Source: Moniliella sp. 'wahieum' (lineage: Eukaryota). From it: a stretch of DNA of 64,000 nt. Location: positions 248,001-312,000 of the forward strand of contig RSEE01000050.1 of NCBI GenBank assembly GCA_003971905.1, written 5' to 3'. Of the stretch, positions 14,735 through 61,090 are shown piece by piece. A program made the position numbers and the translations under genes. Each line of letters starts with the position of its first letter. Position 1 is the first letter of the stretch. Under the pieces are notes generated by a model that was not told the origin of the DNA, did not search any database, and saw nothing but the letters and a program-made list of their open reading frames with translations.

Positions 14735-15898
14735 AGAGACTGAGTGCATCATACCTCGCTGTTCATACCACCCCCCCGCCCTCCCTACCCAACCATATCT
14801 CCCCTTCACGCACGTAACCGCGGCTGATAGAAACGCCGCTGCAGATACATGTAGATACACAACAGAAAGCTATCTTTGTATGCAGAAGACTCTTCGTCTC
14901 CACGCAGGGGGGGCATATCTCATTCTGCCCCACCGTCTCTTGCTCTTCCTCCTCCTCTCTGCCTACGTATGTCTTCCATCGGCTTCGATCGCCGTAACCA
15001 TCAGACATTGGCGGATCGCTTTGTATGTGGGTCTAGTACTATAACGAGGTATGTTTATTGCTACCTGTGTTCGCCTTGTTTCTCTCTTTTACGCCAAAGA
15101 CTTTTCTCGGCTGCCACAACTATAGGAGTGCCATCATCGTGACATGATGCATGAATACCTATCCGGCGGGAGGAGGGGAGAGAGGGGTTAAACCATCATA
15201 CTAGCATTCTTGTTGGTGTGTGCGCCCCACATGCCGAGGAAGTATATTCTCCCACATTGCTGCTTGCTCTCCCAGTGCCCGAGTGATGGGGAGAGAAGAT
15301 GCGTAATGGTTTAAGTTTGTGGCTTTTGGACACCCTTCCAACAGTGGCACAGTGCTGCGGTGGCTGTCGGTTGGATAGACAATGATTAATGATGGCTCAG
15401 CAGCTCGTCACCTACTGCATGGCACGTGACGCGATCCCGAGCGCGTGCCTGTGCGGCGTGTTGGGCGTGTTGGATTGGGAGCAAGATTCCGCAGCGTCGC
15501 TGCGCAGCCGGTGGCATCACATGTGACGGTGGGGTGACTTGGCGTTGCGCAGCGGTGACGCATCCACAATGGATGCTGGCCACGCCCATCCAATGTCCAG
15601 CCCAGGCCGGTGCAGGCAGCTTCTACTGCCGCGCCCAGCCCACACTGCCCCCGTGCGGTGGATCCCGGCAGCCCCCGTCTGTGTGGATGCAGCCGACGCG
15701 CATCCCGGCACGGCGCCTGTCTGGCGGGCGCGGGCATCTGCCGCTGATCCCGCGCGTGATCGGGCACGAGGCCGCAGGCCAGCCGCAAGCAACACTCGCT
15801 GCCCAGCCCAGGCCAGGCCAGGCCAGCGCCGGCTGGCTCCCAGCGACCATCGCTGGCTGTCCGCATCCGTCGCCTATGCTGCACCCACCACACTCGCC

Positions 15899-18800
15899 AT
15901 GACGTCCTCCTCCATCTCGCCGCCCCCGCCATGCCGCCGCCCTCGCCAATACCCCCCGCCCCCTCCTCCTCCGCCGCCGCCATGCCCCCAGCCCGCCCAC
16001 CATCCCCAGCGGCCGCCCCACCCGCAACGGCAACGCTCCTCGCCCTAGCCCCGAAGCGATGCGCGTCTTCCGCTTCCCCCGGCCCTCTCCCCGCCTGAGC
16101 TCCACTCCTCGCCCCCGTCCCCCTCCTCCTCCCCCTCCCCTTCGCCCTCCCATGCGCACCCCATGCCCCCGCCCCCGATCATCGTCCCCCAAGCACCCAT
16201 CCCGTCCCCCCTCCGCGTCCACAGCTGCGCTCCCGCCATGCGTCCGCCAGCTCTTCCACTGCTCTCCGCTCCCACCGCACCAGCCTTATTGGGCTTGTCG
16301 ACCCAGCCCTGGCCCAGTCCTCTCTCTCGTTGGCCTATCGGCAGATGACCCATCGTCGCCCTCGCCATCCCGCAGCGGCAGCCCTCGGAAGATGCACCGC
16401 CATTCCACAGCTGCGGGTACGCCGCCAGCATCTCCTCACTCTCCTTTGCCACGCCATCGCCCCAGTCTCTGAGCCCATCCACCCCCACTCCGTCCCTTAC
16501 TTCCGCCATGGCCATGGGACGGAACTGGTCTATCGCCCCCCCTCTGCACCCAACTCCGTCTCGGCCCGACGGCCTCTCCATCCCTGCCAGCCACGGTCCT
16601 CGTCCAAGCGGGCCACGGTTTACATCGATGCGCCAACTCGTTTCCTCTCGGAGATGGAGGGTGTGAGCATGCTCAAGTCTGACTCTGCCGATTCGCGTCT
16701 GCCATCGGCCAGGGTCAGCATCAGCACGGCCACGTCGGCAACTCGCTCCAGCGCAGGATCACTTCTTGCTTCTTCTCTTTTGCCTCGCCCCTCCCTCCAA
16801 GTCCAGTCCCGCCTGCTTCAGGAGGAAAGGAGAATAGGCACTCCATCTTATCGGCTACCAGCATCGAGTCTGGTGCCGGCCAGTCGGATTGGTCCTCCTC
16901 TCAACTTTGTTCATCACCCACCCTCAACCGCGACTCACACCGGGAACTCCCGCCACTCCACAGCGGATCTCTTCCCTTGCTTCCTCCCCGCCGGAGAAGA
17001 CACCCCGGCACCGTCGCAGGCGATTGACAAAGAGCGAGGATAAACTCATGCAACAACGATACAATGTCGCCCTTGAGCTGCTCGAGAGTGAGAGACGCTA
17101 CGTTGACGGACTCAACTTGATCCAGGAAGTACGTCGTTTCCTCCCGTTAAAATACAAGATGACTGACACCCTTGGTATAGTTCTTTTACAAGCCCTTGTA
17201 CGACGCGGCCTGGCGCCGAGGCGGGCATGGAAGCCACAATTCCCTCAGTATGCTAACATCAGATTCGGGCAAGTTTGCCTTCCCCCTATTGGCCCCGCGG
17301 GAGCACAAGGGCGACAAACTATCGGGCACAGGCTCACGGCCCAACCCTCCCGCTCTCTCCCGCCCTGCACTGAACGAGATGTTCTCCAACTTTTCTCAAA
17401 TTTTGCATCTCAATTCCGAGCTCCTTGCTCTGCTTGAACAGCGGCTCAGTCCACAGGGAAAGCCACCGTGGGATCCGGCGCAGGATGAGGTGGGGGATAT
17501 CTCGTGTCTATTGCCCCTTACCTCAAGCTGTATCTCTATGTCAAAAATTTCTCTGCCGCACTCGAAAGGATTGAGCATGAGCGCCGTGTTTCTTCCGCGT
17601 TTGCTTCTTTCCTTCGTGACGCCGAGAACTTGCCCATGCCCATCAAGTGCAACACACGCCTGCCTCCAAACCCGCGTCTTCCATCCTAGGACTCGGCTTG
17701 CAATCATTCCTTTTATCCATTGTGCAGCGTATCCCACGCTACAAGCTGCTGGTCGAGGGACTGGTCAAATCGACCCCAGACCTTGTCAGACTTTTCTCAC
17801 CTCCAAGCGCTCAGCAGGTCATCCAATCCGTCGCAGCAGGGATCAATGAGAGTGCGACAACATGAGGCGTCACTTGTGTTGCTCGCTGTGCAACGGGCGC
17901 TGCATACGCCGCCGTTTCAGTTGGTCACCCCGGGCCGCACCCTGCTTCGTTCGGGAGTGCTGGGAAAGTCCACCCGCCGGTCGGTTCAGGAACGAACATT
18001 TTCCTCTTTTCCGATTGCCTTTTGTATGCCGCACCGGTCGACACTCCAAAGAAGAATCCTGCCTGGTCACGGTTGGCCCAATATTTGCTTCCCTCACCCC
18101 CATCGGAGCCAGAACGCAAGCATTCCCCGACGAATTTGGGGTGGTCTGGACGGCTCCTGCGGCTCCTGCCGCTTCCTCCTCGTATGAGGTGCCAGGGATG
18201 GTGCATCCTTTTCATCCCTGGCCTCCGAGGACAGCGAACGGGAAGTCGAGCTGACCCCCCATTCCCTCGTCTTTCGTGCCGCGTTTGACCTGCGGGACAT
18301 TATGGTCGTCAACAATGACCCCATGGCCCCGCTCGCACGGAGGCAAGGACGTGAATCGCTCTCGAGCTCCTTCTCCTCCAAGGCCTCGTTGGGGTCTCTA
18401 TCCAACTCCGTCCACGGATCGACATCGAGCGAGTGTGACCTTGTTGGGGTGAGGCATGCATTCGAAATCCGTACTCCCACCCGAAGCTTTGTGCTTTATG
18501 CCGGTGATGAAGCCAGCAAGGAGCGCTGGATCACGGCCATCCGCGACGCCAAGCAAGATTATCTCAGAGCCCGCCGGACCCTCAACCAAAGCGAGGAAGT
18601 AACCGTGCACCGAAAACATGCGTCCGTCTCCTCGATCGAGGCGCTGCGGGCCAGGAGACATTCGCTCATGTCTCCCCCTTCGGGCCAGGTGTCTCCTGCG
18701 CCCACATTCATGCTCGCCGAGCCCAAAATGTCCATCCCTTCTTCTCCCATCGTAGGACGCGGAGGGGCAACCACTTCCCATCCTTGAAGAATACAACGCT

Positions 18801-30567: not shown

Positions 30568-33500
30568 TCAGACTAGCGCCTCAATCGAAGGCAAACTAGC
30601 GTTGCTCTTCAAGTGAAGCATCAAGCTCCGCAAGTACGGAAGCGAATAATGCTTGCCCCCGATCGTTTCGCTGTCACCCACAATACATAGTTGACGCTTG
30701 GCCCGCGTCAAGGCGACATTGAGCCGGCGAAGGTCTTTGAGGAAGCCCACTTCATGGGCCCGGTTGCTCCGCACCAGAGAAACAATGACCAACTCATTCT
30801 CCTGGCCTTGCATCGAGTCAATGGAGCCAATCGCAATCTCGGGGTAAAATCGAGCGAATCGAGCCGTCGATCCTCCTGCACGCATCACCTCCATCTCCAG
30901 CAACGCGCGCACCTGAGCCGTGTACGGAGTCAAAATCGAGATCTGCTCCGGCCGGACCCCATGAGCCAAGAGTTTGAGCACATGAGCCACGACCAAACGC
31001 GCTTCGCCTTGGTTGCTCTTAGACTTTCCCCAGACCCCACTGGTCGGCTTCGATTCCCAGAGGTCGTATCCTGCCGTGTCGTAGAACACGAGCGGGGCAT
31101 CCCACTCGGCATCCTCCTCTGCATCCTCTTCTTCCTCTTCCGAAGATGAGGCATAGGCCTTCTCCTCGCGCATCGCCTCCTTGGCAGCCTTCTTCCCAGC
31201 ATTCTTGAGCGACCTTTGTTCCTCTTGCTTCTTAGCCTTCTTCTCGGCCCGCAAAGCGGCTTTTTCTCCTTTTGACTCTTGGTCGATGGTTTTTTGCCAT
31301 TTCCCCCAGACTTGGCAGGGCGAGGGGGAGGTCCCTTGCCTTTGCCTTTGCCCTTGTCTTTGTTGAAGTAGGCTGTATGCTTGACACCCGATGGCATCTC
31401 TGTCCCTTTTGTAGGAGGTAGAAGAGGCAAGCCATGCTTGGACGTGAGCTGCGACGTATTGGGCAAATCGTTCAATCTAATGGATGCGTTGGTCGCATAG
31501 GCCCGCAGTCCTTCTTCGTACATGGACGTGTTGGGGAACGCCATGATCTGCTCATTGAATCGGTACTGAACACTGAGGAACGTCTTGATTCCCGGCCAGC
31601 CGCGTAGGCCAAAAGCAGACGCTCAAACATGGTTTCCTGCAGCATCTGAGGAGGAACAAGAACCGGAGCGCCCGCCTTCTCCAACTCCTCAGCATCGGGC
31701 GCGGGGGAGGTGTCATCCCATCCTCCGAAATAATCACTGGACCCAACTGCTTTGGGTCGCCTGCGATCACCACCTTCACGGGTGGGCCTTGCGGATCAGG
31801 ACAGGCCCGTGTCAGCGGCACCCAGCACAGTGGTTCAACCGCCTGACACGCCTCGTCAATAATGATAAAGTCAAACGTCCCGTGAAGATCCCAAACTCCA
31901 CTTGCATGCAAGGTGCTCAGCACCACTTCAGCTGCTTGGTCCCAATTCTTCGAATCAGCAGTGCCGGTTACAGGTTGTTCGAGCAGGTGCTCCGGTGCAG
32001 CTGAGGTGGCACCCCCATCGGCAGGTGAAGGCGATGCGGTACCAGAACCGGTGTCTCCACCAGCCGGCGAAGTAGGCCCGGCTGGAGGAACTGCAGAACT
32101 GGCAGGAGCAGACGCAGAGCTGGTACGAACAGGTGCAGAGCTCACCAGAGCAGACCCATGAAAGTGATGCATGTGCCGTGCCACCCGCTCGGTCATCCTC
32201 ACGGGGTTACCAATTCGGGCCACCTTGATTTGGTGCTCACGGAAAAATCGGAACCAAGGTTTATCATGGGCAACCAGCCGCTCTGCAACCGTATCGATGG
32301 CCAAGTTGGAAGGGGCCGTGACCAAAATTCGGGGGCGACGGCCATAGTTGACAACTTGTCCGTCCACCATCACGGGTTCGGTGCCAATCCTTGTTCCTAG
32401 CACCAACTGAACGATCAGCTCCACCAGCGTTGTCGTCTTGCCTGTTCCAGGCGGGCCATGAAGAAGATGAAGGGGAAGCACGTTCTTCCCCATCTCTAGC
32501 TCGTTGAGTTGGGGAGGACGGAACAGATTCAGACTAGGACTGGGATCCTCCTGTTTTGCACGTCCAAACGAGACATTTGGTCGGTAAGATCATCAAGCTC
32601 ATGTTTCCTCCGAACCAGTTCCGCGGTAACGACAGACGAGTCTGACGCTTGTGACGATGTGTCGTCATCCGACTCATCATTCTTTTCCTGAACCAAAGGC
32701 GGTGGGGGAGAACCGTCTTTAGTGGGCTGGACATAGTGTAGCGAAGGGTGGAGGAAGGAACGGCGAATCGCCTTGAGCTGCTCCTCGTTCAACCCTGGTT
32801 AAACGGCTTGAAGGGCAAAGGGGGGAGATTCTCCTCGTTCGCTTGAGGAGCAGAGGCAAATTCGTCCGAACAGAGAATAGCGCGCATGTGCGTCGAAATG
32901 GCCTGGTATGTCCCAGGTTGTAAGGCGCGCGACGGCCCAACTGTTTGGGGAGTGACCTTCTTGCGGTCCTCAGAGGTCTTATGGTGGCTCGCAGGGAGAC
33001 GAACGTTCAATGGGGTGGCCACTGCCTCAATGGCTTGTCGCATGATTTGGAAAACCTCAAAGTCCGCTCGGGCCACGAGACGCAGTGACGTCGGTAACGA
33101 GGCGGCAAACTTGGCTACCCTATCAGGGGTGGCCTCCTGGCCGTGTGGCAGACGCACAATCACCTCCACAGCCCAAGGAGAGGTGCGACTCACCACGCCC
33201 CACGCTTGGAATGGGGTTTGCGGCTTTATTAGCAGCACGCACTTTGGTGCCATCGTCGTTGGTAGGGGTGACCAATAATCGCCCCATGGAGCGGTTTCGT
33301 CCTGCAAGGCGCAAACGCTACCCTTCTTGAATGCATGGATGGGGAGGTAGCGCGGTCGGATTGATGGCAAGAGCTCCAATGTGAGACTGACGCCTTGCCA
33401 TGTGTGCCGAACCTTCCGGGCATAGAGGTGCAAAATGCCAAGACCCTGTGCCTCGAGCTCCTCGGGCGGATGGGGCTCAACCAGTAGACTGTCCCGGGCC

Positions 33501-33724
33501 TGCGTGGCGGCGAACTCGCGCTGGATCAAGTGCGCCTGTTGCCAGAGAAAACGAGAGGTGGCATCACGCTCTCGCGCTTCAGGTACGCTACTAACCCCAG
33601 GAGAGGATTGGGCCTCGCTTGCGTCCATGGTTGGCGAAAAGTGGTGGTGGTGGTAGAGCGGTGGGTCCTGAGTGGAGGTGGAGGTGCTGAATTGGCGACA
33701 TGCTTGGCATAAACCCGGTGGCAT
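30568..33724 (-). CDS. SF1 Upf1-like DNA/RNA helicase (IGHMBP2/Hcs1-like)
   Basis: LNEEQLKAI, HGPPGTGKTTTLVE, LVTAPSNLAID, IIDEACQAVE, AGDPKQLGP, QYRFNEQI, ILTPYTAQV, SIDSMQGQENE, VSLVRSN..VGFLKDLRRLNVALTRAKR. Alternative start at 33628. Confidence 0.92.
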
Positions 33725-37890: not shown

Positions 37891-38827
37891 TTAGTCCTTC
37901 TTGAGTTCCCTACGAATGACCAATGTCGCACCAGGAAGCTGCTCATCTTCTCCCCCTTGCGCCTCAACGGCATTGAACGGCGCGGCGAGGAGGTTAAGCG
38001 CGTTCGCCGGCGGCGGCACCGCCACCGATCCATCTTGCCCCGTCATCGTCGCATCCTCCTCCTTTGCCTCGGTCTCCGCCTTGGGGTTGCGTACAACAAA
38101 GATCTCCAGACCATCACCACAACTTCAATGTGTCGCTCGGTGGCCGAGGTGAACGAGTCGGTGGCGATGCTGATCGCATGCTGGAGCGAAATGTGGCCTG
38201 GGATGGGCAACGGCCGCCCCGGAGTGGCGGTTTGGTTCTTGTACATCACCTGGGAGTCGAGGAAAGGCTGCAGCAAGCTTTGTGCCGCTCCGGCCGCTCG
38301 GCACACCTCGCGCTCGTACGAACCGACCGGATCAAACGAGTAGACAGCACCCTTCCCCTCCTCGTCCAGACCGCCAAGCACATTCCACACATAGTACGGG
38401 AAGAATCGCTTGCCATACAGAATCGTGCAGAGCATGCGTGCAATCCCCGCAAGGGGCATCGATGTACCATGTGCATAGCGGTACAGCTCCAAGCGGGCCC
38501 GAACCAGTTGCACCAGCGCCTCGGCGTCGGCGGCAAACCCATTGGTCGCCAGCGTCGCACGGTCGTTCCTACATCGTAAGAGTTAGCATGGCAGAACAGC
38601 CCAACAGAAGAAAGGCAGGTACGCACAGACGAAATACGCGCGGCTTGTAGCGGGTCTGGATGTTAGCCTTCAGACTGACGAGTGTCACCAGCCAGGACGC
38701 AGAAGTCTTGTCCTGCCACAGCGAGGATGGAGCCTCCGTTGGACGTGTAGGGGTTGAAGCCACGCTGGTTGGCTCCCGCGGCAGACAGGCCGCCGGGGGC
38801 CGAGGCAGGAGCGAGTACGGTCTGCAT
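37891..38827 (-). CDS. PRE7: 20S proteasome subunit beta6 (PSMB1 orthologue)
   Basis: [89 protein letters not shown]. Intron ~38573-38625. Confidence 0.96.
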
Positions 38828-39862
38828 GGGTCGGATGGAGGGGGAGGGGAGGGGGGACGACGGTGGGTTGGGCGTGAGCGGGTGTGCGCCGCCGCTGTGG
38901 TTGGTGGAACGCGTATGCCCAGGCGGGCGGAATTGGAGAGGGGGTGAAATATGAAAGTTCATTAATTCGTGTGCCCAACTACTCCGCCGGAAATTGCTGC
39001 TGGACCCATGGGACGCGGGACCGTCAATTCTCCAATTAGCGCACATGCGCACTCGCTACATTTACGACCTGTACTACGCGAGCTGTACGACTGGTTGATC
39101 GAGGAACGCCATGCGGATGCCAAGTACCTTGGAGCCTGTGCTGGACGGGGGCTGTGCTGCTGGATGCCCACTGGTGCTGACCCGAGGTGTTTTGATGGGG
39201 TGTAGTCTGATGGCCAAGTGGAAGCGGCAGGGGTACGGAAAGTGAAAGTTGTGCTGCGTGCGCTGCATCCAAGCGCGCGACAACAACTCCGAGGGCGCGA
39301 CGTGCATTTGCCGCGTGCCCAATGCGGGCTGCGGGCGGGACGGTGGTGGAGTGCCAGAACTGGGTGGCGGGGACGTGCGTCGCAGGACGTGGCTAGTGGG
39401 CATGGATGCGGGGGTGCGCGGGCGGACACGCAGGGCATAGCCGACAGGATGCAGGCAGCGCGGGCAGGCGCGTGGCAGGTGGCGGCTATTCCGCCAGCAG
39501 CCAAGCGGCTGCGCGGCGCTGCTCCGTCGTGGCGGCCAATTTGGCCCGCCCCGCCGAGAGCCGCGGCAACCCCGGCAACCCGACAGCCCCGGCAGCCGCG
39601 CCCAGCCGCCGCTGGCAGCCGCCGCACCGCACGGCACCCGCCGCACCCGCCGCACCCCAGCCGCAGCAGCGCCACCACTGGCCAGCGCACCCTCACCGCT
39701 CACTCGCACTGGTCCTGCGTCCTGCTCAGCCGCCGTCGGCACGCCCACTCCCCTGCCCCTCCGTGCCCGCCGCCCCCCGGTCTTGCGTGTCCAGCCCCAT
39801 CCTATCCTCTTTGCTCGCGCCGCCACCATCCCCCCCCTGCCCCCACCACCACCGCCGCCACC

Positions 39863-41575
39863 ATGCCCAGCTTCGCCTCCGACTCGGAGCGCACCGAGTC
39901 CGCTGCTGCCTCGCCCGAGCCTGAAAGCAGCCCCCACCCTAGCCGCAGCCGCAGCGCCAGCCTCGCCGATACGCCCGCCGCCGCCGCCGCCTCTGCCCCC
40001 AGCAAACCAACGTCTGCGCCCGTGCCCCGGCGCAAGCTCAAGTCGGCGGCGGAAAAGTCGATGGAGATCAACGATCGCGACATTCGCACGCTCCTCCGTG
40101 GCGTGCACAAGTGGGGCGACCCAGGCTACCGCTATGATCAGCTGGTGGAGGGGCCCGTCTGCAAGGTAAGAACAAGGCCGTTGTCATGCGTACCACGGCC
40201 GACCTCCTTGCGATCTGTACGGCGGCTGTTCAAGCCCACGACCGCCAGCTGCGCGCGATGCTAGCACGCGGTGAGGATGTATCCAAACTACGACAGAAGG
40301 CTGTCCTAGTCAAGTTTCATGGCGTCGACAAGATCAATGCCGAGACGACGGTCATTCGCCACAACGACCTTCGCCTCTTGGGCGAAACACTGGACCCACT
40401 AGACGAGGAGGAACAGAATGCGTGGCGCGTGCCGGCCAAGTCACTCAAGACGACCATGAACTGGTCTGTGCCCTGGAGTGCCGAGGATGACGCCCACCTG
40501 CTTATCGGGTGCTACCGCTATGGCTTGGGCTCGTGGGAGCAAGTCGAAGCTGATCCGGGTCCTTAAGCTGACAGGCAAATTCTCTTGATGGAAGAAAAGG
40601 AGAGAAATAAGAAGTGGAGGAAGCCAAGAAGGAAAAACACAAACCTAAGGACAGCCCCGCCCAGCCATTCAGTCTGGCGATGACGGGTCTAAAGTCAAGG
40701 CCATTCCCAGCTCAGTCCACCTCGTGCGGAGGGAGATTATCTGCTCAAGGTTTTGCGGGAACACGACGATCATCTCAAGGCCGTGGTTGCTGATGCGCCG
40801 GATTTTCCATGAGTGAGGGATTCCCAGCCCGTGCCTCCGTCGGGCCAGGGGGCGTATCGCTGGATTACTCTGACTCGGAAGAAGAGGAAGAGGAGGATCA
40901 AGATGACGATGGATGAAGCGCAATGCAAAGAACTTCTTCGTCCCTGTCGCAAGCATCTCAAACGTCTACGGAATGGACTCGACCCGATGGATCGCGAACA
41001 CACAGTGCCGATTCTCAAGCTCGCGCTCGCTGCAATCGGAAAACAGATCGATCGCTTGGTCAAGACCCAGTCCCAGACTCAGTCGCGCGCTCAACGTCAA
41101 AAACTTGAGCGTCACCTGTGGACGTTTGCATCCTACTTTTGGCCTTCCGAGGTACGTCCCCCATTCCCATTCATCTCTTGTTAGGGTGGAAGCTAACATG
41201 ATTGATGCTCCTAGGTTCAGCCAAGTAAGATGCGTGACCTCTTCAACAGCTTGTCCAGAACAATTCTCCCGCCTTGGATGAAAGTTCGTCGGAGGCCCCT
41301 CCACGTCGGATAGAGGACGACCGTCCTACGAAGCGCAAGCATAGCTCTCTGGGCCCTGACTTGGCCAAGAAACGAAGGGCAAGCGATATGCTTTCTCCTC
41401 CTTCACCTGGCGAGTATGACCGTTCTTCTCCGTCGGTCCGGGATACCGTTCAGAGTCCAGAGGGTACGATGCGCGCTCAAGCCACGGTTCCAGGGACCAG
41501 CTGCGGCGGGATCATTCGATTCGGGGCCACAGGGACCGTCAAGCGCGTTCCCCGCGATCTAGTTGGGGCCCTTAG
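39863..41575 (+). CDS. CHD1 C-terminal module only (SANT/SLIDE DNA-binding domain plus CHCT/DUF4208); no chromodomains or Snf2 ATPase
   Basis: RDIRTLLRGVHKWGD, NWSVPWSAEDDAHLLIGCYRYGLGSWEQVEADP, IPSSVHLVRRGDYLLKVL, CKELLRPCRKHLKRL..LERHLWTFASYFWP. Intron ~41152-41214. ATG in CCACCATG context. Confidence 0.8.
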
Positions 41576-42551
41576 CTCTATCTATTTTTTTCTGGACAAG
41601 AGACGACCACATGTGCTTTCTTTGCACGCAATATCCCTATTTGGCCTGTTGTAGCTGTGTTAGCAGTGCCCTTCTGATAGCGGCCATGAACTATAACCAG
41701 GTCGTATCGTACTAGTTGAAGCCGCCAGAGTGCACCCGTTACAGTTCTTCACCTTCGTCAGCCGCGCCTGTGCACCTCATCCTTACTACTCTCGTCTTCA
41801 TGACCGTTGCCTCCTTCGACATCTAGAGAACAGGCACCCTTCGGCTGCCCCGAACCGCAGAAGCCCTGGGGTCGATCGTCATGTCCCGCCAGTTGTCGAT
41901 GGCCTCAAATAAAAAACTATATGTAATGTTTAGGTATCCACACTCTCGGAGCGAACTTGGACCTGTCCTGAATTGACGAAACGCATTCAAAGCGTGCACT
42001 TCAAGCCAAGAGTAAGGGTTTTGTGGGGTCAACATGGTTTGCGGATGCAAGGTATACTTCCTAGATCAGAAGGATGCATCAGAGTTAATGTCATTTATCA
42101 GACCAAAGACTTTTTCAGCAGACCCGGTTGCATTTTTGAGTGGGAGCGGTCTCCTACTTGTTTACAAAAGCATGAGTATTTGCCTCCTGTTTGGGGGGAA
42201 ACGCTGCCATCGTGGTGTTGAAGTCGTCGCGCCCCCACTATCAGAACGCCAGAGCTGTCATATCGCCCCGCCTCACTAACTCAGTTTGCAGCAATTTCTT
42301 ATGCACCGCCGTCTACTGCCGGGCATGCATACCTCGATCGAAAGCTGGTCCGCCTTCCCGGAATGGTTTCCAGGCCTGCACTCTGTTCCTCGTGGATGCA
42401 TACGAGAGCAGATTGGATGAGATGTAAGCGAACCATGTGGTCACAGTGGGACACTCCCGTACGTTGCTCCCGCAGTAGAAAGGGAAAGCCAGCCGAGCAA
42501 AAGGGGGTAGGGCGCATGGCACGGTGAGGATGGGCTATGGGCGGGTTGGCC

Positions 42552-44424
42552 TTATTCTCGGTGCAGTATGCAAATTCCCTCGACATGGCTGCAAGCAAGG
42601 GTTAGTATGTCCAATGACCAATGATTATGACCATGCGCATCGGGGATGAACATACTGGGTCTGAGGGAAAAAGTCGGCACCACGGAGGAGAAGATGGAGT
42701 AGGCGGGATCGTGATTGAGAGATAGCCCACATCGCGAGCTTGGTATGCACGTTGCAAATACATAGATGATCAGTTTGGGACGCAGCTTGAGTAGTTGATT
42801 CAGGAAGACTGGGTCGGACCCACGTCGCGGTGGGTCAATCACCACCGTTCCTCTCCGGTTCAAACATTTTGATGTGCTTGGTGCCAAAAATCTTTTCGGC
42901 CGAGCCCAATTGAAAGGTAACGTTGGCGACGTTGTTGGCCGCCGCGTTTTCCACGGCACATTCGACTGCCTTTGACGAGATTTCCACCCCAGCCACTTGT
43001 TTGAACAGGGGTGCCAGCGTCAGCGCAAACAGTCCCGACCCGCAGTATGCGTCAATCAAGTAATTTGGCTCGGCGCTCTGGGCCGCTGGGAGGGTGGACT
43101 CAGCGTACAATCTCGTTGCGTATGTATTCGACAAAGGGAACGAGGATGGAACGGTTGAACTGGAAGAAGTCGTTGGCCGGGACATGGAACCACGTAGTAC
43201 CCACTTTTTCATACGCCACGCCACGTTTTTGATCCGTAACCCTTGCGAGGCGAGTGGTTCCCCATTCGAAACCGAGTCCAAGTTGGGAGGGACCAGCGAA
43301 TCCCGTATCAGCAGTGACGCCCCATTACGGTAGTGGTGGATTTTGTCCTGCACCTCTTTCCGCACCTCTTTCAAGCGTTGATTCATCGCATCAGTCGCAA
43401 GACGGCAGTCATCAATATCCATCACGAGGCCATCTCCGCTCATCCCAATAGGAAATGGTTCTGGCGGGGTGGTGGGTTAAACTGGGTTCGACAAGTCCAA
43501 AGACTTTTTGGACAACTTGGCGTAGAGCGTTTCTTGTTCCCTCCACTTGCGTATTCTGGAAGGCAGCTCAAAGTGAGGTAACAATTTGGTGCGATAGCCA
43601 TATTCCTTGGGCGAAGGCAGAGTTTCCTCCGCCCGCGGGATGAGGGAGGCCTTCAACCCACTGTAGTTTGCAAACGCCTTATCCACCACTTGCCGTTTCA
43701 GATCAAGTTGTTGGGGATAGGACAGCATCTGGTACTGGCATCCACCGCAGGAATGGAAGTTCTTACAAAGGGGAGTCTCGGTACGCATTTCAGAGGGGAC
43801 CAAAATGTCCTCGATGAGAGCTTTAGAATGCATCTCAAAATTGTGCACGACCCTCACTACCAATTTGTCGCCGGGCAACGCCTTGGGAACAAGGATGGCC
43901 CAATCCTCATTTAGTGGATCTCGCGCAAGGCCGCACCCGGTCGGTGTGAGCCTTTCAATAGTGACCTGAAAGGCGTGTCCAATGGAATGTACATGCTCCT
44001 GGGTCGTACTTGGCGACCTACGCCGCTCCACCGCCTCAGGGCCCAAAAACTGCTGCACCTCCAGCTCTTCGGGATCAATACCAATGATTTTGGCCTTCTT
44101 GGCGGAGACGAACGGTGAACGACGTTTTTTCGTATGTTTAGTACTGTTAGAGTTGCGCAAAGGAGTGCGAACGTTAGAGTTGCGCGAAGGAGTGTGAACG
44201 TTAGAGTTGCGCGAAGGAGTGCGGTCGGGGGCAGAGGAAGCTGGAACACCCATGATCTGTTCCGCGTCCGGACGGGCTGCCGAGAACGGGGTTTCGATGC
44301 TTGGTGGGCGCCGGCGCACGCGAGAGGCCAGACCGCTTGTCTCTTCGGCAGACGAGATTGGCGAAGAAGAAAAAGAGGATAAGAAGCGTGTGTGCCTCAC
44401 AAGGTGTGGGGGAGGGTAGCCCAT
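42552..44424 (-). CDS. TRM2: tRNA (uracil-54-C5)-methyltransferase
   Basis: TRAM-like region, CKNFHSCGGCQYQMLSYPQQLDLKR, YGYRTKLLPHF, FFQFNRS, LIDAYCGSGLF, VVIDPPRRG, DFFPQT|HVEGICIL. Intron ~42589-42655. Confidence 0.93.
44143..44226 (-). repeat. Coding 27-bp tandem repeat x3 (RTPSRNSNV)
   Basis: gttagagttgcgcgaaggagtg(c/t)gaac units in the TRM2 N-terminus. Confidence 0.9.
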
Positions 44425-50394: not shown

Positions 50395-51784
<1,390 letters not shown>

Positions 51785-56752: not shown

Positions 56753-59700
56753 CTAGGGCCTGGTAAGGCCCACGCCGTCGGGCCAGGCGAGCCGGCTGGA
56801 GCCTCAAACACAAATGTGGTAGGCGTCGACCAGATCAGGTCGTTTAGTCTCGGATTCAGGTTGGGCGCGCTGCCTACCACAACGGGAGGCGCAGAGGGAT
56901 GCGGACTGGCCAGCGAGGAGATGGGGGCTGAGCAGCAGCGCCGAATCCAGAGCTGGGGGGGCACGGGAACGTGGTGACCACCTTGGCCCCCGGTACCGGG
57001 CTCGAACCTAACGGGCTTGCCATCATAGGCGCTCCCCACCGGCCGCGAAGGCGACCGAAGCGGGTGCATCCGTCGCCCGCCCTGTGCGAGGATATGAAGG
57101 AGCGAAGCCGACGTGATGGGCCACTTACTTGCCTTCGGGTTGCAAACGTCCTGCGAAGGGGTGCGATGTGCGCGAAGCGGACTTGCTGCAGATCCGGATC
57201 GGTCGCTCCGCGTCCACATTCGCACCGGCATCCGCATCCGCATCCGCATCCGAGCGCTTGCGTTTCAATTCGCCTTTGGCTTTCTCGGTGCTCTGAATTA
57301 CTGTTCCACCAGGCAAGTCCTTGGCCACCAACATGTCGGCATCCGCAACGAACACCCCGCCCCCGGGCAGGGTGGGATCGGGGCGGAACTTGAGCGAAGC
57401 CACCATTTCCACCGTCTTGCGGTTGCTCACTCCAGCTGTGGGATTCAGCACTCCGTCCCAGAGAGAGGCACGACGCGGACCCTTGGCAGGAGCGTCGGAA
57501 GGATAAGCACCCTGAGCTGCATCGAGAAGAATCTTGAGCACCGCCCCACACTTGCTGCGCCAGGAAGCGTCCGTGGAAGAGATGGCCTCCACATGTTCCT
57601 GCACCTCCTGCGAGGACGCAGCTGGCGTGGTCTTTGGCGAAACTCCACTCTTCTTGCGAACGTGCATTGACGGGGTCCGCCGACGCATACACCTTCTCAA
57701 TCGTTCGGAGCTTTTCCAGGGCCACTGGTCCTTCCTTCGCACATACGCGTGGTAGAGCAGGGTGGCACACGAGACGATGCAGTACGAGATGCAGGACAAG
57801 GTGTCGCAATAGAATGGGTGGGCGGCAGCCCAGTCGCAGGCGCTCTTGCACGCCGTGAGCATCGCCGTCATTCGCTCGATCGTGATGGAGAAGCGAAGAT
57901 GAGTGGGACAGACATACGAGATGCGCATAAAGACACGGAAGAAGAGAACCAAGAGACAGGCATAGCTCACTTGCAAGATTCCGGCCCGGGGTTGGCCGTC
58001 GTATCAGTGTATTTCAACTGAGGCGGCAGCGCATCATGCCATGCGTCAATGTCAGCCAGCAGACCTTCGATCTGAGCATCGGTAGCATTCATCAGCCCCG
58101 TGGGGGAGTAGATCGTTTTCAGCACCCTGCCCAGCAAAATGCTCAACTTGACCATCTCAGTGTTAAACGCAAACACCTGTGTCTCCCCTGTCACGGCGGT
58201 TGAGCCAGGAAGGGGCATGTCGGAACCGGGCTTGCTACGTACCACCTCGACGGGCGAGGGGAGCCGGACATCGCAGTCGGTCAAATCGATAGAAAGCGGG
58301 CGGCCGGCGTACAAAGACGCCCATCGATCCGCGACACACAAGCACCCCAGATCCGCCGGCGTTGTTCGATATGATACGCATCAGGCGTGCTGCCATTGGC
58401 GCGGGAGATGGACTCACGGTGGAAACCGAGATCTTGGGCCATCCGAATCCCCAGCCCGGTCCGATTCCAGTGGCGCGAGGGCGCTTGGAGGAAGGAACCA
58501 TGAACATCGTGGTGCAAGGACATGATCAAAAGGGAGCGAATGGTGGTCGTGTGGGAGCGGGAAAGCATCGCGCCGTCTTTGAAAAGGGTGGCCACTTCCC
58601 CTCGCAACACAGCCCGCACCTCCGACGGCACTTCCCGGCTCTGCGCAGCAACAAACAGATAGAGTAGAGCAACGCCGGTGGGGTCGGGGTGGTATAGACA
58701 AACTCACTCTTGGTGACCACCGGAAAGAGAGTGCCCAATTCAGCAAAGTACGAATTGGTCAGTTTCTCGGCCACATCGCCAGCCAGCTGGCGACGGGCCA
58801 TGTCCGCTTCCAACTTGATGGAAGCCGGCGCGCCCACGGGCAAGTCATCCCCATCCGAATCGCTCTCGGCCACCGCGCTCCGGCCTCTGGGTGGCTTGTG
58901 GAATTTGATGACTCCATCTCCATTGGCACCCACCTCAAAGGTCTGATGAGCCTGGCGGTCGTGCTCCTCAATCGCACCTGTCGGCACAAAGGGCGTGGAA
59001 TGCACGAGATAAGCGATGGAGGTGGGCCCCAGGACAGTAGCGTCGACAGCAGCCACACCCGACTCGGCACTGCCACGAAGGCCAGAGGTCGATGGCGGGC
59101 GAAGACCTTCGTCGTCGACTGAGTCTTCCGGACTCGGCTTTTCCGGCGGCAAGAGAGAGCCTTCGCCGAGGAGGGACCTGCCACAGCAGCATACGTGCCG
59201 GATGTGTCACCGTCTGCCTCCTTCTTCTTTTTGAACCGCGTCTCGGAAATGGGCAGAACGAAGGAGCATTCTAAGGCAGACTCATGGTTAGCAAGCGATG
59301 ACAGCAACAGAGTAAAATGACGCACCTAGGCCGTAAGTGCGACAATGGACACACATCTTGAGGGGCTCGATGATGTCGCAGCGGATGCGCTTGCGGCGGC
59401 AGCAGTCGCACGCACGCTGCGTCTTTTGTCGCTTACTTGCCGGGGAGGGATGGGGACACCGCCGACAGTGGTGGGTGCAGATATAGCGGCAGCAGACGTG
59501 GGTGCTCCGGACGAGGCTGGCAGGCCGGCGGGGGCGCTGGCCTGCGGAGCAAGGTGGCGCTGGTGGGCATAGGCAAAGGCCTGCTCCTCGTGGGGAGAGG
59601 GGGCGGTGGGAGGTAGGACAGGGAGGCGCGGGCAGAGGGCGGGGCGTAGCGGGGACGCTTGTGGGGCGGTGGCGGGTAGAAGTAGGGTCGTACTCGTACC

Positions 59701-59988
59701 CGTACTCGTACTCGTACGCGTCTTGGGGGGCAGCCCCGTCTTCGGGGGCGGTAGGTGGGGCGGGCATGGCGTAGGCGCCGTAGGCGCCGTATGCGGGCAA
59801 GTCGGGCGGGGGGCGGGGCGGGAGGGCGGAGTAGCCGCTGCTGGAGGGGCGGCGTGCGGGTGGGCGGAGGGGAGGGGCATGGCGGCCAGCGCGGTCGGCA
59901 GCGGCGGGAGCGTGCTGGGCGTGGACGCAGCCGCGGCCGGGGCGGCGTGGCCGAGGGCGACGGACGAGCGGGGGCGCGGGGCAGACAT
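56753..59988 (-). CDS. Zn(II)2Cys6 fungal transcription factor with fungal-specific TF middle domain
   Basis: RACDCCRRKRIRCD..CVHCRTYGL|ECSF (intron ~59273-59326). YFAELGTLFPVV, GIRMAQDLGFHRE, EQRRRIW, ADRWASLYAGRPLSID, KLSILLGRVLKTIYSP. Ends approximate. Confidence 0.9.
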
Positions 59989-60450
59989 GCGGGTGGGCAC
60001 TGTGGGCACGGCACGCGCAGCAACGCGAGCAGCCCAGGCGAAGCAACGGCAGGCAGCGGCGAGCAGGCGGAGGCAGGAGAGGAGGAGACGGGAGGCGCGA
60101 GCAGCCGTCTGCCGGTGCTGCCGGCTGCCTGTGCGGCGCCCGGCGCGGGTGTGCGCTGTGTGGTGTCCTGCCCGGCCGCGCTGACGGGCCGAGGTGTCTG
60201 GGCACTGCAGTAGGCAGCAGTGCTCATGCAGGCCGCAGCAAGCCGCAGCGCCATGCTGTGTGCTGCTCTGTGCGGCTCTGTGCTGCTGCGTGCTGCTCTG
60301 TGCGGCTCTGCGCTGCCATGCTCCCTGCCCGCTCCGGCACGCTTGCTCGCCGCGCCGGCACGCCCACTGCTGCTCTGCCGCCCCCTGCCGCCGCCGCCGC
60401 CCCCTTGCCGCTGTGCCGCTCTCCCCGCCCCATCGCCATCTCACCAGCAT

Positions 60451-61090
60451 TCACCGGTCACGCTCGGGTCACCGGTCACTGGCCGCCCGCCTCCATCTGC
60501 GGGTCCGGCCGCGCTCATGCGTCCGGCCGTTGTTCCGGCGCTCCCCCACGTCACAAATCGCACACGCCACATGTCACTCCGGCCTCACCGGTCGCCACCG
60601 CCCACCAGGCACCACGCCTCTCGCGTTGCCGGCGTCACCGGTCACCGATCAACGGCCACCCGGGACCACCCCCCTGGGTCGTGGGATGCAGCACGGCGGG
60701 GCACATCCCGCATCCCGCTTCCCGCATCATGCATCATGCATCATGCCATGCATCATGCATCATGCATCATGACTCGTACTCGTACCATCTCGAGCGTGCG
60801 AACTGGTGCGCTGGTGCGCGGAGGCTGCGGCGCGAAAAATGCTTGCTGTGTGGTGCGTGGGGTGACAAGTTTCGGACACTCAGGCACTGCCAGCCCAGGC
60901 CAGCATCCAGGCCCCCGCCCAGGACGCGATCATCCATAGCGACCATACTTCTCATGCATCCCAGCGCTCGCGCTCATCGATCATCGATCATCTCGATCAT
61001 CAACCGTCCTGTACTACGAATGGGTCCATGCCTATGGGACAGCTCGCTGGTTCGCCAATGAGATCGATGATCGATGATCGATCTGATCTC
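60451..61090. repeat. Cluster of heptamer arrays upstream of the Zn2Cys6 gene
   Basis: (ACCGGT+C) 60451-60480 and 60635; (ATGCAT+C) about 6 copies 60724-60771; (ATCGAT+C) 60975-61001; (ATCGAT+G) 61059-61090. Confidence 0.9.

What the first reader, a model, noticed from the sequence alone, without database searches (positions are those of the whole stretch)
39863..41575. Stand-alone CHD1 C-terminal gene: possible split remodeller or ATPase-less paralogue
Established: Chd1 is chromodomains, Snf2 ATPase, SANT/SLIDE, then CHCT. Seen: only SANT/SLIDE and CHCT are present. The ATG is in a CCACCATG context after a C-rich leader like other genes here. Only ~1 kb of GC-rich DNA with no helicase motifs separates it from the divergently transcribed PRE7, leaving no room for an ATPase. 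Inference: either gene fission, with the motor encoded elsewhere and acting in trans, or a truncated duplicate acting as a DNA-binding adaptor or competitor.
Basis: partly seen in the sequence, partly recalled or inferred. Interest (0 to 1): 0.7.

Follow-up and report, generated by a model that had tools for sequence, protein, structure and literature searches.

The report
CHD1 tail fragment in noisy assembly
The stretch really holds only the last third of a fungal CHD1 chromatin-remodeller gene, but its reading frame is broken many times in an error-rich assembly and a damaged BUD31 gene lies just upstream, so it is a truncated gene end or an assembly fault, not a proven new stand-alone protein.

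Summary
The homology is real. Window 40016-41300 (+) encodes the CHD1 linker, the SANT-SLIDE DNA-binding domain and CHCT (Pfam; yeast Chd1 structures). It is 56-67% identical to four CHD1 proteins carrying the Snf2 motor. No chromodomain or Snf2 sequence occurs anywhere in the 64 kb.

The ORF 39863-41575 does not exist as written. It needs at least 7-8 frame changes plus one canonical 63-nt intron.

The neighbours are broken the same way. PRE7 has 2 breaks and a helicase has 7, nearly all 1-2-base gaps with no stops. So the breaks look like assembly errors, not decay.

The "empty" 1-kb spacer holds a BUD31-like gene on the same strand with larger lesions, including an in-frame stop.

Tilletiaria CHD1 and PRE7 sit on a scaffold of the same length. 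This suggests the ancestral CHD1 locus with its 5' two thirds missing.

My odds:
- real 5' deletion remnant: about 0.5
- assembly loss: about 0.28
- functional motor-less protein: about 0.12

No reads or whole genome were available to settle it. Earlier notes of this scan reported the same kind of thing in this genome.

The parts
37894..38827 (-). PRE7 (20S proteasome beta-6) gene. It has a 58-nt intron at 38569-38626 and two frame breaks (about 38665 and 38120) inside highly conserved sequence.
   Evidence: Pfam Proteasome, E 3.2e-21. 94% identical to P0005 and 76-78% to named smut-relative PRE7 proteins. Frameshift-aware alignment to P0005, P0012 and P0006.
38915..39400 (+). BUD31-like gene remnant on the same strand as the CHD1 tail. 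Lesions seen: N-terminal third unrecognisable; about 6 conserved residues missing after DLYY with a frame change (about 39085); a probable intron at about 39124-39201; an in-frame TGA inside a 6-nt tandem duplication (39238-39249); a C-terminal Cys motif out of frame.
   Evidence: Pfam BUD31 PF01125 in three ordered pieces: profile 49-68, 71-92 and 100-125. PDB Bud31/Cwf14 alignments. Three-frame reading.
39400..39862 (+). C-rich, 77-79% G+C low-complexity spacer with short simple repeats. It could be a leader or promoter for the tail, or the site of the junction.
   Evidence: Composition. Tandem and direct repeats. No codon-position periodicity.
39863..40015 (+). These have no detectable homologue and are in frame with the first conserved CHD1 block.
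   Evidence: Sequence. 0 PDB hits. Representative search matches only from query residue 50 on for the best hit. BLASTP E>=20 to P0003 and P0002.
40016..41151 (+). CHD1 linker end, SANT-SLIDE DNA-binding domain and most of CHCT. It is spread over three frames, with breaks near 40145-52, 40555-61, 40583, 40590-40705 (one or more), 40730-34, 40795-40856 and 40905.
   Evidence: tblastn. Frameshift-aware alignments to five CHD1 proteins. Pfam. PDB.
41152..41214 (+). Canonical phase-0 intron (GTACGT...CTAAC...TAG, 63 nt) inside the CHCT region.
   Evidence: Placed identically by alignments to P0003 and P0260. Signals read.
41215..41575 (+). End of CHCT (VQPSKMRDLFN...) and a low-complexity C-terminal tail. 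There is one more frame break near 41248. The true stop is uncertain (41575 in one frame, 41651 in another).
   Evidence: Alignment to P0003. Three-frame translation.
42560..44424 (-). TRM2-like tRNA (uracil-5) methyltransferase, convergent with the tail. Its 3' end (about 42640-42850) changes frame several times within about 250 nt.
   Evidence: Pfam tRNA_U5-meth_tr. Three-frame reading. Weak PDB match (E 0.058) of the next frame to an RNA m5U methyltransferase.

Best explanation
This is the 3' third of the fungus's CHD1 orthologue. It covers the linker end, the SANT-SLIDE DNA-binding domain and the CHCT domain, and it probably sits at the ancestral CHD1 locus next to PRE7. The 5' two thirds (N-terminal region, chromodomains, Snf2 motor; about 3.5 kb) are absent from the DNA as assembled.

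I read it as a 5'-truncated remnant left by a fairly recent deletion that ended in GC-rich simple-repeat DNA downstream of a damaged BUD31 gene. The many frame breaks inside the tail are mostly one- or two-base assembly errors of the kind seen in every conserved neighbour. They are not evidence of decay.

Shown:
- the domain content
- the absence of a motor in the 64 kb
- the broken frame
- the same error type in the neighbours
- the BUD31 remnant

Inferred:
- that the loss is real and not an assembly fault
- that it is recent
- that the remnant has no demonstrated function of its own
For: - Homology begins abruptly at about 40016, at residues 809/901/1160/568 of P0001-P0004. The conserved post-ATPase block that precedes the DNA-binding domain in all 8 of 8 fetched relatives is missing.
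- No motor sequence occurs anywhere in the window.
- Tilletiaria anomala CHD1 (P0003) and PRE7 (P0012) both lie on a contig of 106,952 nt. So this is probably the native CHD1 locus and not a dispersed copy.
- The retained canonical intron shows a genomic origin, not a retrocopy.
- Frame breaks are the assembly's usual 1-2-base gaps. PRE7 has 2 in 0.88 kb. The helicase has 7 in 3.1 kb. M24 peptidase and Fungal_trans domains abut across frames. The TRM2 3' end changes frame several times.
- The adjacent BUD31 carries multi-base lesions and an in-frame stop. So real damage may also exist at this locus.
- By general knowledge, long-read assemblies that are noisy at base level are usually structurally sound. 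An internal loss of 3.5 kb of unique sequence is therefore more easily a property of the DNA than of the assembler.
Against: - The tail shows no sign of decay beyond error-type gaps. No substitution stop occurs on the P0003, P0002 or P0260 alignment paths.
- Its identity to outgroups is almost the same as that of intact relatives: 57% to P0003 against 60 and 58% for P0001 and P0002, over 292 columns.
- Intron signals are intact. This fits a live gene, whether a full-length CHD1 whose 5' part the assembly lost or a selected stand-alone gene.
- Frame-break density is about 3 times that of the two measured neighbours (8 in 1.22 kb against 9 in 3.97 kb; binomial P 0.028). However, breaks cluster in purine-rich low-complexity DNA, and a similar cluster occurs in TRM2, so this is weak either way.
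- The junction lies in 77-79% G+C simple repeats, and BUD31's larger lesions could also be poor local consensus.
- No reads, no whole assembly and no close relative's locus could be examined.
Confidence: 0.5

Rival explanations
1. Assembly loss. The organism has an ordinary full-length CHD1 here, and the draft assembly dropped the 5' ~3.5 kb at the GC-rich simple-repeat stretch. The tail is then simply the normal DNA-binding and Rtf1-binding end of CHD1.
For: - The assembly is demonstrably poor at base level. There are frame breaks in PRE7, the helicase, M24 peptidase, a Zn-cluster factor and TRM2.
- The tail looks like a live gene: no stops, no rate acceleration, intact intron.
- Homology ends at simple repeats in 77-79% G+C DNA.
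- BUD31 just upstream has unusual multi-base lesions that could mark a badly resolved stretch.
- All 4 nearest homologues carry the Snf2 motor together with the C-terminal domains.
Against: - Loss of 3.5 kb of unique, non-repetitive coding sequence inside a contig is not a usual long-read assembler error (general knowledge).
- The short simple repeats here are tens of bases long.
- The flanks are in a plausible native context.
Confidence: 0.28
2. Functional motor-less CHD1 protein. A short low-complexity N-terminus joined to SANT-SLIDE and CHCT is expressed from the C-rich leader. It binds linker DNA and, through CHCT, the Paf1-complex subunit Rtf1. It would act as an adaptor, or as a competitor of a full-length remodeller encoded elsewhere.
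For: - An in-frame ATG sits in a CCACC context behind a C-rich leader. Similar kb-scale C-rich stretches precede two other genes in the window.
- The tail is conserved without stops or rate acceleration although the motor is gone.
- In yeast and mouse the CHCT domain alone suffices to bind Rtf1 (passages of PMC12390759 read).
Against: - The frame is not intact as assembled.
- The N-terminal 51 codons have no homologue.
- No tail-only relative was found. Of 21 representative hits, the 8 inspected all carry upstream CHD1 sequence.
- There is no expression data.
- Conservation is equally explained by a recent deletion or by an assembly loss.
Confidence: 0.12
3. Gene fission. The motor half of CHD1 is encoded at another locus without a DNA-binding domain, and the two halves assemble in trans.
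For: Only that the tail lacks a motor and looks conserved.
Against: - No motor-only CHD1 could be looked for, because no genome is held.
- The conserved segment between the ATPase and the DNA-binding domain is simply missing and not neatly partitioned.
- No such split CHD1 appeared among the homologues retrieved.
Confidence: 0.05

Closest known systems
Full-length CHD1/Hrp3-type remodellers of smut-related basidiomycetes: unnamed P0001 (1255 aa), P0002 (1316 aa) and P0004 (944 aa, N-terminally cut), and Tilletiaria anomala K437DRAFT_274892 (P0003, 1758 aa)
   Same: 56-67% identity over the 135-aa SANT piece and 54-60% over 292 ungapped tail columns. The order is the same: linker end, SANT-SLIDE, acidic stretch, CHCT. 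The intron position in CHCT is compatible with P0003 and P0260.
   Different: The window lacks the N-terminal region, the double chromodomain, the Snf2 ATPase and the conserved post-ATPase block. Its frame is broken at least 7-8 times.
Saccharomyces cerevisiae Chd1 DNA-binding domain (PDB 3ted, 2xb0; full-length 5o9g and others)
   Same: Window residues align to Chd1 1109-1202 at E 7e-15 to 8e-14.
   Different: The yeast domain is part of a 1468-aa motor protein. Here it stands without a motor in the assembled DNA.
Chd1 CHCT domain as Rtf1-binding module (PMC12390759)
   Same: Pfam CHD1-like_C match, E 4e-21. The paper's passages state that CHCT alone suffices for Rtf1 binding.
   Different: No binding was tested here. 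The relevance holds only if the tail is expressed.

Membership tests
CHD1 subfamily remodeller | Tandem chromodomains | tested here: not met
   No tblastn HSP to the chromodomain region of P0001-P0003 in the 64 kb. No Chromo Pfam hit in 196 ORFs.
CHD1 subfamily remodeller | Snf2-type ATPase (SNF2_N + Helicase_C) | tested here: not met
   No HSP and no Pfam hit in the window. The rest of the genome could not be searched.
CHD1 subfamily remodeller | SANT-SLIDE DNA-binding domain | tested here: met
   Pfam HTH_CHD1_Hrp3, E 2.8e-11. Yeast Chd1 DBD structures, E 7e-15. Continuous alignment through the SLIDE block '...VHLVRRGDYLLKVLREH'.
CHD1 subfamily remodeller | CHCT (CHD1-like_C) domain | tested here: met
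   Pfam PF13907, E 4.1e-21, profile 5-84 of 96.
Stand-alone protein-coding gene | Continuous reading frame from start to stop (introns allowed) | tested here: not met
   7-10 frame changes not explained by introns, with 5 references. Probably assembly errors, so the true state is unknown.
Stand-alone protein-coding gene | Own start and N-terminus supported by homologues or transcripts | tested here: inconclusive
   ATG in a CCACC context. However, the first 51 codons have no homologue, and no expression data could be had.
Stand-alone protein-coding gene | Same tail-only architecture in related species | tested here: inconclusive
   None found. All 4 close homologues carry the Snf2 motor, and 8 of 8 inspected shorter hits carry upstream CHD1 sequence. 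The searches cannot see genomic context.
Processed or decaying pseudogene | Substitution stops, loss of conserved residues, accelerated rate, loss of introns | tested here: not met
   No stops on 3 of 5 alignment paths. The 2 stops on the other two paths lie in low-complexity stretches where the frame is ambiguous. Identity to outgroups is like that of intact relatives. The intron is retained.
BUD31/G10 (neighbour) | Full-length G10 domain with intact Cys motifs | tested here: not met
   Only Pfam profile 49-125 of 146 is found, in three frames, with an in-frame TGA.

The most novel reading that the evidence does not exclude
A natural motor-less CHD1. The native CHD1 promoter and start would drive a protein made only of the SANT-SLIDE DNA-binding domain and the Rtf1-binding CHCT domain. 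It would be kept by selection as a chromatin or elongation-complex adaptor, or as a competitor.
Probability: 0.1. Interest if true: 0.6.

Novelty: new member of a known kind. Interest (0 to 1): 0.15.

Why it matters
If the tail-only gene were real and expressed, it would be a natural experiment separating CHD1's targeting modules (DNA binding, Rtf1 binding) from its motor. That would be of some interest to chromatin biologists.

As it stands, the finding is mainly a caution. In this assembly, open frames, starts and stops cannot be trusted. What looked like an intact novel gene is a broken CHD1 end beside a damaged BUD31. Re-sequencing the locus is needed before any biology is built on it.

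Tried and rejected
- **Whole genome:** none is held for this window. The search for a full-length or motor-only CHD1 elsewhere could not be done.
- **Sequencing runs for 38900-41700:** none was listed, and no RNA holder was listed. So read laying was not used.
- **Earlier notes by sequence or place-relatives:** 0 look-alike windows.
- **BUD31 in the outer flanks:** small ORFs of 41.5-42.9 kb (38 ORFs) and 33.7-37.9 kb (83 ORFs) gave no BUD31 hit. It turned out to lie between PRE7 and the tail.
- **Homology of the upstream ORF 39449-40015 to CHD1 N-termini:** only noise, E>=20. Two of these noise-level hits fall on the same pre-chromodomain region of P0002 and P0003. I do not count this as evidence.
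- **Codon-position G+C for finding the coding start:** the clear coding signature begins about 39980-40040. The Ser/Ala/Pro-rich stretch before it is uninformative.
- **Frame-break density as a sign of decay:** P 0.028 against two neighbours. Rejected as evidence because breaks cluster in low-complexity DNA and a similar cluster occurs in TRM2.
- **PDB search of a second TRM2 piece:** 0 hits.
- **Literature:** a search for Chd1 + Ustilago returned 13 papers, of which 8 were listed. No listed title concerns a truncated or split CHD1 (titles and abstract starts only).
- **Other tools:** structure prediction, complex prediction and the atlas search were not used, because they would not bear on the open question.

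Full report
**What is there**

The window is from a GC-rich basidiomycete. The nearest named relatives are smut allies: Tilletiaria anomala, Exobasidium, Pseudozyma and Sporisorium.

- Pfam finds HTH_CHD1_Hrp3 (E 2.8e-11) and CHD1-like_C (E 4.1e-21) in 2 of 3 translated pieces.
- All 9 PDB sequences found at E<=0.01 are Chd1/CHD1. The alignment falls on yeast Chd1 residues 1109-1202.
- A word-based search for longer proteins returned 4 hits among 620 candidates. All carry Snf2 ATPase and CHD1 C-terminal domains, and they are 67, 64, 61 and 56% identical to the 135-aa SANT piece.
- tblastn of these four against the whole window gives significant matches only at 40016-41253 (+). The matches start at protein residues 809, 901, 1160 and 568. 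Nothing matches any residue upstream of the linker.
- Pfam scans of 59 and 137 ORFs across the window found no SNF2_N, Helicase_C or Chromo domain.

**The frame is not intact**

I wrote a protein-to-DNA aligner that allows frameshifts and GT..AG introns, and ran it with five CHD1 references. The homology runs through all three frames.

Breaks recur near these positions:
- 40145-52
- 40555-61
- 40583
- one or more between 40590 and 40705
- 40730-34
- one between 40795 and 40856
- 40905
- 41248 (the latter seen only with P0003, the only reference that extends that far)

That is 7-10 events depending on the reference. Nearly all are equivalent to one or two missing bases.

One canonical 63-nt intron (GTACGT...CTAAC...TAG, 41152-41214) is placed identically by P0003 and P0260.

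On three of the five paths no stop codon has to be read through. On the other two, the two stops lie in the Lys/Glu-rich low-complexity linker, where the frame is ambiguous.

**Are the breaks decay or assembly error?**

I measured the neighbours.
- PRE7 (37894-38827, minus) is 94% identical to an unnamed relative and 76-78% to named smut-ally PRE7 proteins. It still needs two frame corrections inside invariant sequence, with no stops.
- A 1,000-aa AAA_11/AAA_12 helicase (30571-33706, minus) needs 7 corrections against P0125. Six are single missing bases, and again there are no stops.
- Pfam profile coordinates show M24 peptidase and Fungal_trans domains continuing directly from one frame into another.
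- The 3' end of the TRM2-like methyltransferase changes frame several times within about 250 nt (weak PDB support).

This independently agrees with earlier notes of this scan that the assembly is full of small gaps.

The tail has about three times the break density of PRE7 plus helicase: 8 in 1.22 kb against 9 in 3.97 kb (binomial P 0.028). However, its breaks cluster in purine-rich low-complexity DNA, and TRM2 shows a similar cluster. I do not read this as decay.

A relative-rate look agrees. Over 292 ungapped columns the window is 57, 54 and 45% identical to P0003, P0004 and P0260. P0001 is 60, 53 and 48% identical, and P0002 is 58, 55 and 48%.

**The 5' boundary and the spacer**

Homology starts at "PVPRRKLKSAAEKSMEINDRDIRTLLRG" (about 40016).

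The conserved block that precedes the DNA-binding domain (…LDEMDLDDIL…) is not in the window. It is present in all 8 shorter representative hits that I inspected, out of 21 hits in total.

The 51 codons after the proposed ATG have no homologue.

The DNA from 39400 to 40010 is 77-79% G+C with short simple repeats such as GCACCCGCC x4.7 and CCG x5.7. It shows no codon periodicity.

Two comparable kb-scale C-rich stretches lie at the 5' ends of other genes in the window.

The spacer is not empty.
- Pfam PF01125 matches three ordered pieces: profile 49-68, 71-92 and 100-125.
- These pieces align to Bud31/Cwf14 of solved spliceosomes.
- Its lesions are larger than the usual one-base gaps. The N-terminal third is unrecognisable. 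About six conserved residues are missing after DLYY, with a frame change. A 6-nt tandem duplication carries an in-frame TGA (39238-39249). The C-terminal cysteine motif is out of frame.

**Locus identity**

Tilletiaria CHD1 (P0003) and PRE7 (P0012) are both reported on a contig of 106,952 nt. For two random genes to share such a scaffold would be unlikely. I therefore take the window's tail to be the CHD1 orthologue at or near its ancestral place, and not a dispersed duplicate. Adjacency and orientation in Tilletiaria could not be checked.

**Interpretation**

The data fit three readings.

1. *A real, fairly recent 5' deletion that left a motor-less remnant (my preference, about 0.5).* Structural loss of 3.5 kb of unique sequence is not a usual assembler error. 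The neighbouring BUD31 shows what look like real lesions. A recent event explains why the tail has not decayed.
2. *Assembly loss of the 5' part of an ordinary CHD1 (about 0.28).* This is favoured by the live-gene look of the tail, by the GC-rich repeat junction and by the poor assembly.
3. *A functional motor-less protein (about 0.12) or a split gene (about 0.05).* If expressed, such a protein could bind DNA through SANT-SLIDE and Rtf1 through CHCT. Passages of PMC12390759 state that CHCT alone suffices for Rtf1 binding. Nothing here shows expression, an intact frame or conservation of the architecture.

No reads and no whole genome were available.

**Comparison and novelty**

The tail is a member of the CHD1 family by its two C-terminal domains. 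It fails the two N-terminal defining features in this window. I found no relative with a tail-only architecture. A literature search (Chd1 + Ustilago: 13 papers, 8 listed, titles and abstract starts seen) showed nothing on truncated or split CHD1.

Earlier notes of this scan describe the same kind of CHD1 tail, one of them beside a dead BUD31, on what are labelled other pieces of this genome. I could not tell whether these are the same locus, so I do not treat them as independent.

Verdict: an ordinary truncated gene end, or an assembly fault, in a noisy draft. Interest is low unless re-sequencing and RNA data show an intact, expressed tail-only gene.

Noticed in passing
window 38915-39400 (+): BUD31-like splicing-factor gene between PRE7 and the CHD1 tail. 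Its lesions are larger than the assembly's usual one-base gaps: an in-frame TGA within a 6-nt tandem duplication at 39238-39249, about 6 conserved residues missing after DLYY, and an unrecognisable N-terminal third. It is either a young pseudogene or badly resolved consensus.
   Followed up: partly
window 30571-33706 (-), 37894-38827 (-), 42640-42850 (-), about 51077-51102 (-), about 58335-58338 (-): Conserved genes across the window need 1-2-base frame corrections without any stop codons. These are the helicase, PRE7, the TRM2-like methyltransferase, M24 peptidase and a Fungal_trans factor. ORFs, starts and stops in this assembly are unreliable.
   Followed up: yes
window 30571-33706 (-): The AAA_11/AAA_12 superfamily-1 helicase of about 1,000 aa has only two close homologues in the large protein collection (P0125 64%, P0126 55%). 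The next hits are HCS1/IGHMBP2-like at 32-34%. It carries a long Lys/Glu-rich insert. It may be a lineage-restricted helicase.
   Followed up: no
window 15414-16447 (+ strand C-rich) and 59336-60774 (- strand C-rich): Kb-scale 77-80% G+C stretches, C-rich on the coding strand, lie at the 5' ends of a PH/FYVE-domain gene and a Zn-cluster transcription-factor gene. They resemble the stretch upstream of the CHD1 tail. It is not clear whether they are low-complexity coding sequence or leaders.
   Followed up: no
P0005: An unnamed PRE7 protein 94% identical to the window's PRE7 exists in public read assemblies, so a close relative has been sequenced. No CHD1 of comparable closeness was returned; the best was 67%.
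   Followed up: no
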